Program-made: the position numbers
From: Escherichia coli O157:H7
GTDB lineage: Bacteria; Pseudomonadota; Gammaproteobacteria; Enterobacterales; Enterobacteriaceae
Assembly (NCBI RefSeq): GCF_013167455.1
Contig: NZ_CP038328.1
Reading direction: 5' to 3' (one strand)
Length of the DNA stretch: 64,000 nucleotides
Part shown: one piece after another, positions 39,001 to 42,000 of the stretch
Layout: each line of letters starts with the position of its first letter
Numbering within the stretch: the first letter of the stretch is position 1

Positions 39001-42000
39001 CTATCGTCTCGATGGCTTGCCCCGTCTGGTTCAGCACGGTGCCAGCAAACAGCGAAACCATATCGGGATAGCCAATAGCGGCGGCAAGAGAGGAGTTTTT
39101 GACGATGTTGAGATACTGGCTGGTTAACGGTGGAATAATCACCCGCAGTGCCTGGGGAATAATGACCTGGCGTAGCGTAACCGGGTTGGGTAATCCCAGT
39201 GACCGAGCCGCTTCATGTTGACCATAAGGCACTGCCTGGATCCCCGCGCGGATAATCTCGGCGATAAATGCAGAGGTATAAACCGAAAGTGCCAGCGTTA
39301 AGGCTGCCAGTTCAGGAATTAAAACCATCCCGCCGCGGAAGTTAAAGCCTTGTAGGGCTGGGACATCCCAGTGTAGTGCTGCGCCAAAAAGCCATTGCGC
39401 CAGTAAAGGCAAACCGATGATCAACACTGCGGCGATGGGCCAGGTGCGGCGCAGCTGTCCGGTCTTTATCTGGTATGTTTTATTAAAGCGGAATAGCCCA
39501 ACAGAAAGGACTATAGCCATAACAACAGCCAGGATAAACGCAATAAATCCGTCTCCCAGCTGCGGTGACGGAATATAAAGCCCACGATTGCTCAAAAAGG
39601 CCAGATCAAACGCGCTCACAGCCTGGCGTGGTCCGGGCAAATTGCGCAACACGGCAAAGTACCAGAAGAAGATTTGCAGCAGCGGGGGAATATTACGGAA
39701 GATCTCAATATAAATTGTGGAAAGCTTTCGTAGCAGCCAGTTATCCGAAAGTCTCGCCAGACCGATAAAGAAGCCCAAAACAGAAGCGAACACAATACAC
39801 AATGCAGAAACCAGTAGCGTATTGAGTAAGCCGACAATAAAAACGCGTCCGTAGGTGTCGCCCTGCTGGTAATCGATCAAATGCTGGACAATACCGAAGC
39901 CAGCGCCGCGATCCAGAAAGGCAAAACCTGAAGTAATGCCACGATTATTGAGATTCGTTACAGTGTTGTGAAATAACCAACCAACAATGCCGACAACAGC
40001 AACAACGGCAAGGATCTGGAATAACCAGGCGCGAACCGTAGGGTTGGCAAAAGAGAGTGAGCCTTTAACGGTTGAGCGGCGATGAGACATAGAAACCTCG
40101 GAAAGCATAACGCTGAAGAGAGCGCCGCCGTAGCGACGCTCGTCACCTCACACCGACTTAACGCACGGGCGGTGCGTACTGAATACCGCCGTTATTCCAG
40201 AGATTATTTTGCCCACGTTTAATTTTCAGCGGGCTTTCTGAACCTACGTTACGCTCGAAAATTTCCGAGTAGTTACCCACCTGTTTGATGATGTTATAGG
40301 CCCATTTATTATCCAACTTCAGATCCTTGCCGTAATCGCCTTCTTTACCCAGCAGATGTGCCATATCAGGCGTTGCTGGATTAGCCGCTTTTTCATCGAC
40401 GTTCTGGGAATTGATGCCCATCTCTTCAGCATTTAGCATGGCGAAAAGCGTCCAGCGTACAATCGAGAACCATTCATCATCGCCACGACGAACTACCGGC
40501 CCAAGCGGTTCTTTAGAGATAACCTCCGGTAAGACAATCCATTCAGCCGGGTTGCTTAATTTGATGCGCAGGGCATACAGTTGGGATTGATCCGAAGCCA
40601 GCGTATCGCAGCGACCGGATTCCAGTGCCTTCGCTGATTCGTCAGAACGATCGAAAGTCACTGGTGTGTACTTCATATTGTTTGCCTTGAAATAGTCGGC
40701 GACGTTGAGTTCGGTATCAGTACCCGCCTGAATACAGACGGTAGCGCCATCCAGTTCTTTCGCGCTTTTTAGCCCCGCTTTATCGTGCGTCAGGAAGCCA
40801 ATGCCGTCGTAATAAGTGACGCCAGTAAATGCCATTCCCATCCCGGCATCGCGAGATGAAGTCCAGGTCGTATTACGGGAGAGCAAATCCACTTCCCCTG
40901 ACTGTAAAGCCGTGAAGCGTTCTTTTGCTGTGAGTGGGGTATATTTCACTTTCGTGTCGTCACCAAATACAGCAGCGGCAACACCACGACAAACATCAAC
41001 ATCAATACCTGAAAACTTACCGTCTGCATCGGCATAAGAGAACCCAGGTAATCCATCACTGATCCCGCATTGCACAAAACCTTTTTTCTGAACGGCATCA
41101 AGCGTCGCGCCAGCATGCGCCTGATTTGCAACGGCAAGCAGCACGCTGGCGGCAGCCAGTGTGGCTATCATCATCTTTTTCATAATGCTTCCTGTGAGGC
41201 GAAAATTATCGTTATAGGACGTTTGGGAAACGTCTTTTGCCTGTCTGTGGCCATCCTCTTATAAGCAAAAGTAGTGCCAGCTTTTGCGCACGATTTCGCG
41301 TCGCAATAAGCTGAGTGTAGACAGGAAATAATAAAAACAGCGCCCCGCAATGGTGCGAAAATGAAACATGCGCCATATTTTGGCGCAAAACATTTACGCG
41401 TGTTTTACTAAGCAGAATAATGATTGTTAGCGTGAGTATATTTCTGGTGGGAAGTGCGAAAGTTAAATTGATGCGTTATTTCGAAAGCAGCGAAATAACA
41501 CGATATAACATGCTAAATCAGCAGAGAATTAGCCAGCAGAATATAGCAATATTTTATCTTATGTAAAGATACTGTATCGTTAAACAGAGCGCGAAACTCC
41601 GCGCCCTGTTCAGTTATTTCGACAGAGCGATGATCCCCATCGTCAGGCCAGCAACAGCCGCTGCCCCGCCAGCAATAGCCCCAGCCGTTTCCCAGTTATC
41701 CTGAGTCGTGCCTTTCATACAGGTATTGGTGTGAACCAGACGACCCTGATCGTCATAAACCGGAACGCAGGGCGAATCGTGAGCACAGCCCGCCAGCAAT
41801 GCGGTGAGCAATGCCACAGGAATTAATCTTTTCATGGTGTTACCTCAGTAATAAACGCTAACGCTTAATAAGTTAACTCTCTTATTAACGAGCTGAATGC
41901 CATTTTATCACCGGAGGTTATAAATCTTGCGGAATGAATAATGACAAATTATGTGAATTGTAAAAATAGTGAAGGGAGCGGGAGCTATAGAAAGCTTTTA

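What the first reader, a model, noticed from the sequence alone, without database searches (positions are those of the whole stretch)
41184..41400. Sigma-54-type promoter and upstream enhancer-like palindromes in front of yhdWXYZ
On the minus strand, about 70-80 nt upstream of the yhdW start, the sequence CTGGCACTACTTTTGCTTAT has the GG-N10-GC spacing and TGGCAC/TTGC context of a sigma-54 -24/-12 promoter (plus coordinates 41261-41280). Further upstream are two dyads: TGCGCCA-N5-TGGCGCA (41369-41387) and GCAATGGTGCG (about 41347-41357). These resemble NtrC-type enhancer half-sites (TGCACCA-N3-TGGTGCA) but with atypical spacing. Together they suggest nitrogen-regulated, enhancer-dependent expression of this amino-acid ABC transporter.
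Basis: inference. Interest (0 to 1): 0.45.

Follow-up and report, generated by a model that had tools for sequence, protein, structure and literature searches.

The report
Known nitrogen-regulated sigma-54 promoter of yhdW

Summary
The window is E. coli O157:H7. CTGGCACTACTTTTGCT (41264-41280, minus strand) is the best sigma-54 match in the window. The identical 17-mer is a published sigma-54 ChIP-seq site in K-12 (OS34, 70 nt upstream of yhdW) and an in vitro RpoN-holoenzyme target. NtrC ChIP-seq shows binding and induction at yhdWXYZ under nitrogen starvation. The -24/-12 element is kept in all 79 orthologous Enterobacteriaceae loci examined.

The upstream "dyads" are real conserved elements, but the "atypical N5 spacing" is a mis-register. 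Conservation supports two 17-bp NtrC-type sites in the normal 7-N3-7 frame, centred at -126 and -96. They are weak (9-10 of 14 consensus positions) and always 30 bp apart. Readings as terminator hairpins or ZraR boxes fail.

Details not found in the papers read:
- The upstream module sits 41-43 or 52-54 bp from the promoter, one helical turn apart.
- An invariant 13-mer, CCTGTCTACACTC (-72 to -60), matches none of the regulator motifs checked (NtrC, ZraR, IHF by eye).
- The O157 lineage carries a base change in site 1.

Verdict: already known, low interest.

The parts
41264..41280 (-). Sigma-54 (RpoN) promoter yhdWp: CTGGCACTACTTTTGCT, with GG at 41278/41277 (-25/-24) and GC at 41266/41265 (-13/-12).
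   Evidence: Top matrix hit in the window at 18.3 bits. Identical to published sigma-54 ChIP-seq site OS34 and to the gSELEX motif. TGGCA[CT]-N4-TTTGCT is present in 79/79 orthologous loci while the spacer bases vary.
41253..41253 (-). Predicted transcription start (+/- 2 nt), giving a 70-nt 5'UTR.
   Evidence: Inferred from the convention that the TSS lies 19 bp downstream of the motif centre (PMC4591121). No primary TSS mapping was found.
41371..41387 (.). NtrC-type site 1, TGCGCCAAAATATGGCG, centred at -126.
   Evidence: 9/14 to the consensus here and 10/14 in K-12. G2, C3, C5, T11, G12, G14 and C16 are invariant or nearly so across 80 sequences.
41376..41376 (-). O157-lineage substitution (A instead of G) at position 12 of site 1.
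   Evidence: G in 79 of 80 orthologous sequences. The O157 70-mer is identical in 297 of 4,790 matching E. coli genomes, and the sampled rows among the rest are 98.6% identical, i.e. one mismatch. K-12 has G.
41341..41357 (.). NtrC-type site 2, CGCACCATTGCGGGGCG, centred at -96.
   Evidence: 10/14 to the consensus. The invariant columns (G2, C3, A4, C5, G13, G15, C16) coincide with the high-information positions of the published NtrC ChIP-exo motif GCaCcaaaAtgGtGC. It lies exactly 30 bp from site 1 in 76 loci.
41326..41340 (-). T-rich tract (CTGTTTTTATTATTT) between site 2 and block C.
   Evidence: Moderately conserved as T-rich. Function not tested; a bend or Lrp/NAP binding is only conjecture.
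41313..41325 (-). Block C: invariant 13-mer CCTGTCTACACTC (-72 to -60), unexplained.
   Evidence: Each column is conserved in 70-77 of 80 sequences. Its TCTACAC core starts 36 bp after the start of site 2 in 72 loci, so the centres are 30 bp apart. It is absent in the Cedecea-group loci and L077, which keep the promoter and both sites. It matches neither the NtrC nor the ZraR pattern and has no other close copy in the window or at five other Ntr promoters.
41302..41307 (-). Small conserved ATTGCG motif downstream of block C.
   Evidence: T185 79/80, G189 73/80, C190 77/80. Function unknown.
41184..41252 (-). Conserved 5'UTR: GCCACAGACAGG (41251-41240), hairpin (41234-41218), ATAACGATAA (41215-41206), RBS AGGA (41193-41190).
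   Evidence: Alignment of 78 sequences. The hairpin forms with different stem sequences in nearly all of the 40 sequences printed of 51 distinct; median dG is -8.3 and median z is -3.5 over all 51.
40158..41183 (-). yhdW, intact 341-aa periplasmic amino-acid-binding protein, first gene of yhdWXYZ (yhdX, yhdY and yhdZ follow down to 37030).
   Evidence: ORF list and RefSeq annotation of the identical O157:H7 sequence. K-12 yhdW is a pseudogene.

Best explanation
The region is the enhancer-dependent sigma-54 promoter of the yhdWXYZ amino-acid ABC-transporter operon.

Proposed mechanism:
1. RNA polymerase carrying sigma-54 sits as a closed complex on the -24/-12 element (41264-41280).
2. Under nitrogen limitation, phosphorylated NtrC binds two weak 17-bp sites centred at about -126 and -96. 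These lie three helical turns apart, on one face of the DNA.
3. NtrC oligomerises, loops to the promoter and uses ATP hydrolysis to open it.
4. Transcription starts near 41253 and produces an mRNA with a conserved, structured 70-nt leader.

Because both sites are poor matches to the NtrC box, like those of glnK, the promoter is probably activated only at high NtrC-P, that is, under severe nitrogen starvation.

What is shown and what is inferred. Sigma-54 and NtrC occupancy and induction by nitrogen starvation are shown in K-12 by published experiments. Here, the motif, its conservation, and the site register, spacing and phasing are shown. The exact NtrC contacts, the start point, the 'late activation' idea and the role of the extra conserved 13-mer are inferred.
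For: Identity of the locus:
- The spacer is 100% identical to E. coli O157:H7. It differs from K-12 at 12 of 430 spacer positions, none in the promoter or site 2 and one in site 1.

Sigma-54 promoter:
- Best matrix hit in the window.
- Same 17-mer as ChIP-seq site OS34, FAT 29, 70 nt from yhdW.
- RpoN-holoenzyme gSELEX peak with the same motif.
- Listed as an NtrC-class promoter 'yhdWp' with perfect -12/-24 elements (PMC7045595).
- 79/79 orthologous loci keep TGGCA[CT]-N4-TTTGCT while the spacer varies.

NtrC:
- ChIP-seq peak at yhdWXYZ (16.2-fold) in N-starved cells, with RNAP binding and up-regulation.
- All 15 previously described NtrC operons carry a sigma-54 peak.
- A blind consensus scan recovers the classical glnAp2 sites at -140/-108 and the glnHp2 and nac sites. 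Run the same way on yhdW it finds sites at -126 and -96.
- Both sites are phylogenetic footprints: mean information is 1.4-1.7 bits against 0.38 in background columns. Their invariant columns coincide with the high-information NtrC positions.

Geometry:
- Site 1 to site 2 is 30 bp in 76 loci.
- The upstream module sits 41-43 or 52-54 bp from the promoter, a difference of one helical turn. This is what face-of-helix coupling between enhancer and promoter predicts.
Against: - In a single sequence the NtrC sites are weak (9-10/14) and about one such match is expected by chance in the spacer.
- NtrC-alone gSELEX did not report this spacer in the passages found.
- ChIP-seq bins are 80 bp and fall on the promoter itself, so they cannot assign NtrC to these particular sites.
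- No primary TSS mapping or rpoN/glnG dependence test specific to yhdW was found in the papers available. Zimmer 2000 and Reitzer 2001 are not held.
- All experiments are from K-12, where yhdW is a pseudogene, not from O157:H7.
- A yhdW promoter-lux fusion is active in LB and induced by lomefloxacin, and ZraSR is reported to regulate the operon. NtrC may therefore not be the only input.
Confidence: 0.9

Rival explanations
1. The sigma-54 promoter is real, but the conserved upstream sites serve a different enhancer-binding protein. ZraR, the zinc/envelope-stress regulator, is the named candidate, acting instead of or in addition to NtrC.
For: A 2026 preprint states that yhdWXYZ is regulated by ZraSR, citing Rome et al. 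2018, and links the operon to antibiotic tolerance. Rome et al. reportedly found about 25 ZraR ChIP-seq targets. ZraR is an NtrC-family sigma-54 activator.
Against: The ZraR boxes in the zraP/zraS spacer are GAGTAAAAATGACTCGC and its inverted copy. Upstream of yhdW, no GAGT-N7-ACTC with <=2 mismatches exists apart from a chance hit in the hairpin just after the yhdV stop codon. gSELEX classifies ZraR as a single-target regulator, and ChIP-exo found only zraP, zraSR and mgtA as direct targets. The invariant columns of the sites follow the NtrC motif. The primary ZraR paper could not be read.
Confidence: 0.12
2. The two dyads are intrinsic terminators, or an attenuator, for transcription coming from upstream (yhdV read-through, or a short transcript from the sigma-70-like promoter at 41567-41540). 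On this view they are not protein-binding enhancers.
For: The scan flags both as terminator-like hairpins followed by T-rich tails. It also finds a 10/12 sigma-70-like promoter with a TG motif about 150 nt upstream. The E. coli hairpin 1 folds at -11.6 kcal/mol.
Against: Across 74 distinct orthologous sequences the central pairs are broken in 57 (dyad 1) and 58 (dyad 2). There is almost no compensatory change. At least 5 T in the tail is kept in only 5 and 4 sequences. Stems outside E. coli fold at only about -2 to -8 kcal/mol. Sequence is conserved where pairing is not, including the invariant 'loop' bases T115 and G116. The -35 hexamer of the upstream promoter-like site is absent even in K-12. 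There is no Rfam match.
Confidence: 0.05
3. yhdWp is a compound promoter, like glnAp1/glnAp2. On this view block C (TG-T-CTACACT, 41323-41314) is the extended -10 of a second, sigma-70/sigma-S-type promoter starting near 41307. NtrC site 2 would overlap its -35 region and repress it when the sigma-54 promoter is switched on.
For: Block C is as conserved as the sigma-54 core and sits at a fixed distance from site 2. TACACT has the key A2 and T6 of a -10 hexamer, preceded by C at -13 and a nearby TG; the sigma-S-type consensus used here is from my own recollection, not a tool result. A yhdW promoter fusion is active in nitrogen-rich LB. ChIP-exo found that 9 of 16 NtrC/RpoN promoters also bind RpoD. 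Sigma-38 tolerates a degenerate -35.
Against: There is no -35 match, and the promoter scan does not call it. All 13 positions, including the flanking CC and trailing C, are uniformly conserved, which is more typical of a protein-binding site than of a -10 element. No TSS data were found. The Cedecea-group loci lack it.
Confidence: 0.2

Closest known systems
glnAp2 of E. coli (NtrC-activated sigma-54 promoter of glutamine synthetase)
   Same: Both have a TGGCAC-N5-TTGC-type -24/-12 element and two NtrC sites about three helical turns apart upstream of -90. They lie at -140/-108 in glnA and -126/-96 here, found with the same blind scan. Both show NtrC and sigma-54 occupancy in vivo.
   Different: The glnA sites are near-perfect (13/14 and 12/14) while the yhdW sites are 9-10/14. 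glnA has a characterised upstream sigma-70 promoter, glnAp1 (own knowledge); for yhdW a second promoter is only a hypothesis.
glnHp2 (glnHPQ glutamine ABC transporter) and the argT/hisJ promoters
   Same: These are NtrC/sigma-54 control of a periplasmic-binding-protein amino-acid ABC importer, part of the nitrogen-scavenging regulon. In glnH the NtrC sites lie at about -121/-108.
   Different: glnHp2 uses overlapping strong sites plus an IHF site between enhancer and promoter (own knowledge). By inspection against the remembered IHF consensus WATCAANNNNTTR, no match is seen at yhdW; no scan was run. An unrelated invariant 13-mer occupies that position instead.
glnK-amtB promoter
   Same: It is a sigma-54 promoter whose best NtrC-box matches are also weak, 9-10/14. 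Weak sites are associated with activation only at high NtrC-P (own knowledge of the literature).
   Different: Site positions and spacing differ. The late-activation behaviour has not been measured for yhdW.
zraP/zraSR divergent sigma-54 promoters (ZraR)
   Same: They are sigma-54 promoters with an NtrC-family activator, and the operon is claimed as a ZraR target.
   Different: The ZraR box GAGT-N7-ACTC is absent upstream of yhdW.
[quoted passage not shown]
   Same: It is a homologous transporter (YhdW is an AapJ homologue) that is also under Ntr control, according to the preprint's discussion.
   Different: It comes from a different phylum-level lineage. Its promoter architecture was not examined here.

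Membership tests
Sigma-54 (RpoN) -24/-12 promoter | GG and GC doublets exactly 10 bp apart within a TGGCAC-N5-TTGCW context | tested here: met
   CTGGCACTACTTTTGCT at 41264-41280. It scores 18.3 bits, above the median (15.8) of 41 ChIP-seq training sites, and ranks 1 of about 128,000 positions.
Sigma-54 (RpoN) -24/-12 promoter | Correct orientation and a plausible distance upstream of a gene | tested here: met
   It lies on the sense strand with the predicted TSS 70 nt upstream of the yhdW ATG. In 79 orthologues the motif ends 75-99 nt from the ATG.
Sigma-54 (RpoN) -24/-12 promoter | Evolutionary conservation of the -24 and -12 elements but not of the spacer | tested here: met
   79/79 loci keep TGGCA[CT] and TTTGCT, while the 4 spacer bases vary: TACT, TACC, CCCC, TCCC, CGCG and others.
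Sigma-54 (RpoN) -24/-12 promoter | Occupancy by sigma-54 holoenzyme | not testable with these tools
   Published for the identical K-12 sequence: ChIP-seq OS34 (PMC4591121) and gSELEX (PMC8743547). Not shown in O157:H7.
Sigma-54 (RpoN) -24/-12 promoter | Transcription start about 12 nt downstream of GC, dependent on rpoN and an enhancer-binding protein | not testable with these tools
   EcoCyc status was 'predicted'. Induction in N-starved cells with NtrC and RNAP binding is reported. No TSS mapping was found.
NtrC (GlnG) enhancer site | 17-bp dyad TGCACCA-N3-TGGTGCA, with core GC.C at positions 2-5 and G.GC at positions 13-16 | tested here: inconclusive
   The sites match 9/14 and 10/14, which is not above chance in one sequence. 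The register GC-N11-GC and the invariant columns do match the ChIP-exo motif. The N5-spaced reading is contradicted by invariant 'spacer' columns.
NtrC (GlnG) enhancer site | At least two sites on one face of the helix, roughly 100-150 bp upstream of the start | tested here: met
   Centres are at -126 and -96, with 30-bp spacing fixed in 76 loci. The same scan places the glnAp2 sites at -140/-108.
NtrC (GlnG) enhancer site | NtrC occupancy in vivo | not testable with these tools
   There is a locus-level ChIP-seq peak in K-12 (PMC4066584). Its 80-bp bin does not resolve individual sites, and ChIP-exo tables were not available.
ZraR enhancer site | Inverted GAGT-N7-ACTC boxes, as in the zraP/zraS spacer | tested here: not met
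   The boxes were read from K-12. The only hit in the yhdV-yhdW spacer lies in the hairpin just after the yhdV stop codon.
Rho-independent terminator | Stable GC-rich stem followed by a U-run, maintained in evolution | tested here: not met
   It is called only in E. coli. Pairs are broken and T-runs lost in most genera.

The most novel reading that the evidence does not exclude
The yhdW control region may be more than 'two NtrC sites plus a promoter'. It would be a rigid three-part upstream module: site 1, site 2 and an invariant 13-mer CCTGTCTACACTC, each 30 bp apart. The module is kept in helical phase with the sigma-54 promoter, because indels occur only in one-turn steps. The 13-mer matches none of the regulator motifs compared here (NtrC, ZraR; IHF by eye). 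It could be the site of an undescribed co-factor or architectural protein. Alternatively it could be the -10 of a second promoter that NtrC represses, which would make yhdWp a compound promoter integrating nitrogen status with another signal such as envelope or antibiotic stress or stationary phase.
Probability: 0.35. Interest if true: 0.3.

Novelty: already known. Interest (0 to 1): 0.12.

Why it matters
It matters little beyond confirmation. yhdWp has been counted among the NtrC/sigma-54 nitrogen-scavenging promoters of E. coli since the 2000 microarray study cited by later papers. It has since been confirmed by sigma-54 ChIP-seq, RpoN gSELEX and NtrC ChIP-seq, and has been used as a synthetic-biology part.

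The analysis adds modest value in four places:
- It corrects the register of the NtrC sites to canonical 7-N3-7 with degenerate right halves.
- It shows that the enhancer module is helically phased with the promoter across about 20 genera.
- It flags an unexplained invariant element and a structured, conserved mRNA leader.
- It notes that the intact transporter of pathogenic E. coli O157:H7 carries a lineage-specific change in one NtrC site.

These points could interest groups now studying YhdWXYZ in gut colonisation and antibiotic tolerance.

Tried and rejected
1. 7-N5-7 'atypical' NtrC dyad: rejected. Two of the five 'spacer' columns are invariant, and the outer arm columns 121/122 are variable.

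2. Terminator or attenuator hairpins: rejected as a conserved feature. There is no Rfam family in 40900-41900.

3. ZraR boxes: none found. The primary ZraR paper (Rome 2018) is not held.

4. Sigma-70-like promoter at 41567-41540: probably chance, because the -35 differs already in K-12 and the region is not conserved between genera.

5. Block C compared by eye with consensus sequences recalled from memory (IHF, GlrR TGTC-N10-GACA, NorR, PhoB, TorR, LexA, CRP, TyrR, Lrp, Nac, and a second sigma-54 site): no convincing match. These are memory-based comparisons, not tests. No other copy of block C occurs in the window or at the glnA, glnK, glnH, nac, astC or zraP control regions.

6. Building an NtrC matrix from published site lists failed. 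The Shimada supplement holds only the RpoN table and the Park 2023 supplements are not held. The consensus, the ChIP-exo motif string and a calibration on known promoters were used instead.

7. Zimmer 2000 and Reitzer & Schneider 2001 could not be read.

8. RNAalifold on the 5'UTR alignment missed the hairpin because of alignment gaps. Per-sequence folding was used instead.

9. An early side note that IS1203 had replaced envR-acrE upstream of yhdV was wrong for this window. That insertion belongs to the reference strain only.
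Full report
**Identity and context.** A 601-bp stretch around the finding is 100% identical to E. coli O157:H7 chromosomes and 95-99% identical to nearly all other complete E. coli genomes. On the minus strand the order is yhdV (41835-41614), a 430-bp spacer, then yhdW (41183-40158, intact 341 aa), yhdX, yhdY, yhdZ and the rrn operon. In K-12 yhdW is annotated as a pseudogene. The K-12 spacer differs from the window at 12 of 430 positions. None lies in the promoter or site 2, and one lies in site 1.

**Checking the observation.**
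- CTGGCACTACTTTTGCTTAT is at 41280-41261.
- TGCGCCA-AAATA-TGGCGCA is at 41387-41369.
- GCAATGGTGCG is at 41347-41357 on the plus strand. On the gene strand it reads CGCACCA, so it is a half-site rather than a dyad.

**Is the promoter match more than chance?**
- The bare core TGGCAC-N5-TTGC occurs once in the window against 0.32 expected, which is not impressive alone.
- I built a matrix from the 41 other intergenic sense sigma-54 ChIP-seq sites of Bonocora et al.. It scores this site 18.3 bits, the best of about 128,000 positions, with the runner-up at 14.9.
- About 0.033 such sites are expected in the window and about 1e-4 in this spacer on the right strand. Six of 200 shuffles reach the score.

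**What is already published on this sequence.**
- The identical 17-mer is sigma-54 ChIP-seq site OS34 in K-12. Its peak is 29-fold above threshold and the predicted start is 70 nt upstream of yhdW. It is marked as 'predicted in EcoCyc' and counted among the 15 predicted promoters that the study confirmed (PMC4591121).
- With their convention (start 19 bp downstream of the motif centre), the window start is 41253, also 70 nt from the ATG.
- In vitro gSELEX with RpoN holoenzyme, with and without NtrC, gives a peak in the yhdV/yhdX spacer with the same motif (PMC8743547).
- NtrC ChIP-seq in nitrogen-starved cells lists yhdWXYZ (16.2-fold). The authors state that RNAP binds and that all listed units are up-regulated, and they cite the earlier microarray work for NtrC dependence (PMC4066584).
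- A metabolic-engineering paper uses 'yhdWp' as one of twelve NtrC-class sigma-54 promoters and notes its perfect -12/-24 match but low strength (PMC7045595).

The main interpretation is therefore correct and already known.

**Conservation of the promoter.** I fetched 80 orthologous loci covering Escherichia, Citrobacter, Enterobacter, Kosakonia, Trabulsiella, Siccibacter, Cedecea, Buttiauxella, Atlantibacter and others. All 79 with enough upstream DNA have TGGCA[C/T]-N4-TTTGCT ending 75-99 nt from the ATG. The four spacer bases vary freely, which is the signature of selection on the -24 and -12 elements themselves.

**The upstream elements.** Alignment anchored on the promoter shows sharply bounded conserved blocks in an otherwise variable spacer. 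Background columns average 0.38 bits.

- The conserved columns are TTTTGC.C....TGTGGC.
- The outer bases of the right arm are variable: G in 47/80 and C in 47/80.
- In the normal 17-bp NtrC frame the site reads T-G-C-k-C-y-r-nnn-T-G-T-G-G-C-g.

*Block 2* reads y-G-C-A-C-C-A-nnn-c-r-G-g-G-C-g.
- Its invariant columns are G2, C3, A4, C5, G13, G15 and C16.
- These are the high-information positions of the NtrC ChIP-exo motif GCaCcaaaAtgGtGC (PMC9853098; comparison).

Both blocks share GC-N11-GC, as in TGCACCAnnnTGGTGCA (consensus quoted in PMC8743547). The 'atypical spacing' is therefore a mis-register. These are canonical-frame but degenerate NtrC sites, 9/14 and 10/14 in the window and 10/14 and 10/14 in K-12.

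**Calibration of the site scan.** The same blind scan, with positions counted from the -12 element, gives the following:

| Promoter | Site positions | Match to consensus |
|---|---|---|
| glnAp2 | -140, -108 | 13/14, 12/14 |
| glnHp2 | -121, -108 | 12/14, 13/14 |
| nac | -152 | 13/14 |
| glnK | several | 9-10/14 only |
| yhdW | -126, -96 | 9-10/14 |

The yhdW geometry resembles glnAp2 and its site strength resembles glnK. That the promoter needs high NtrC-P is an inference from this analogy.

**Geometry across genera.**
- Site 1 to site 2 is exactly 30 bp in 76 loci.
- The start of site 2 to the TCTACAC core of a third conserved block is 36 bp in 72 loci, which is 30 bp centre to centre.
- The distance from that third block to the promoter falls into two classes, 41-43 bp (25 loci, including E. 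coli and Citrobacter) and 52-54 bp (48 loci).
- These classes are one helical turn apart. Length changes have therefore been tolerated only when they preserve the rotational setting of the upstream module relative to the promoter, as expected for looping over a short distance.

**Rival readings.**

(a) *Terminators.* The scan tool calls both dyads terminator-like and finds a sigma-70-like promoter about 150 nt upstream.
- Across 74 distinct sequences the central stem pairs are broken in 57 and 58.
- There is almost no compensatory change, the T-tails are not kept, and the stems are weak outside E. coli.
- The upstream -35 is missing even in K-12.
- Rfam finds nothing.

(b) *ZraR.* A 2026 preprint says ZraSR regulates yhdWXYZ.
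- The ZraR boxes of the zraP/zraS spacer (GAGTAAAAATGACTCGC, inverted pair) have no counterpart here.
- gSELEX and ChIP-exo describe ZraR as essentially single-target.
- A minor or indirect ZraR input cannot be excluded.

(c) *Lrp.* Lrp ChIP signal at yhdW has been reported. It could reflect binding to the T-rich tract, but this was not tested.

**Unexplained element.** CCTGTCTACACTC (41325-41313, -72 to -60) is as conserved as the sigma-54 core, at 70-77 of 80 per column.
- It is missing only in the Cedecea-group loci and one other locus, all of which keep the promoter and both NtrC sites. It is therefore a separable module.
- It does not resemble NtrC or ZraR sites and does not recur in the window or at five other Ntr promoters.
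- It fits no regulator consensus I could recall.
- It can be read as TG-N1-CTACACT, an extended -10 of the sigma-S/sigma-70 type (recollection, not tested). That would make yhdWp a compound promoter like glnAp1/p2.
- Promoter activity in LB and the frequency of RpoD co-binding at NtrC promoters are compatible with this. However, there is no -35 and no TSS evidence.

I leave this as a hypothesis at about 0.2, or about 0.35 for 'some undescribed function'.

**Verdict.** The feature is an already known member of the NtrC/sigma-54 regulon. Interest is low. The residual novelty lies in the phased tripartite upstream module and the unexplained 13-mer.

Noticed in passing
window 41313-41325 (minus strand): An invariant 13-mer, CCTGTCTACACTC, lies between the NtrC sites and the sigma-54 promoter. 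Its TCTACAC core starts 36 bp after the start of site 2 (centres 30 bp apart). It is absent in Cedecea-group orthologues and matches none of the regulator motifs checked. It might be a -10-like element (TG-N1-CTACACT) of a second promoter.
   Followed up: partly
window 41184-41252 (minus strand): The yhdW 5'UTR is strongly conserved. It contains the CA-rich box GCCACAGACAGG (41251-41240), a hairpin at 41234-41218 that is kept by compensatory changes across genera, an invariant ATAACGATAA (41215-41206) and a CACAGGA ribosome-binding region. This suggests post-transcriptional control, for example by an sRNA, as for other amino-acid-binding-protein mRNAs.
   Followed up: partly
window 41376: The O157:H7 lineage has A where 79 of 80 orthologous sequences (including K-12) have G, at position 12 of NtrC site 1. 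The O157 70-mer is identical in only 297 of 4,790 matching E. coli genomes. The change lowers the consensus match from 10/14 to 9/14.
   Followed up: partly
window 42088-45237 (minus strand): An AcrF-like RND efflux permease gene upstream of yhdV is split into two ORFs of 628 and 410 aa. The break is a stop codon in a short stretch at about 43320-43350, so the gene is probably a pseudogene in this strain. The 100%-matching reference strain PV15-279 instead carries an IS1203 insertion and deletion here, and is collinear with the window only below 42758.
   Followed up: partly
window 7214-7230 (plus strand): CTGGCATGATTCGTGAA is identical to the weak intragenic sigma-54 ChIP-seq site IS41 inside rplD reported by Bonocora et al. 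Several other sub-threshold sigma-54-like matches cluster at 6858-7907, and the best of them (6858-6874, 14.9 bits) is not in their list.
   Followed up: partly
window 41540-41567 (minus strand): A sigma-70-like promoter match, TTTACA-16-TATATT with an upstream TG (10/12), lies just after the yhdV stop. The -35 hexamer is not present in K-12 (CTCCAT) and the region is not conserved between genera, so this is probably chance.
   Followed up: partly
window 41412-41443 (minus strand): A further moderately conserved upstream block, ATATTCACGCC.GAAAT.ATTAT in most genera and ATATACTCACGCTAACAATCATTAT here, lies about 60 bp upstream of NtrC site 1. It is absent in the Cedecea group, where an upstream terminator abuts site 1. 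Its function is unknown.
   Followed up: no
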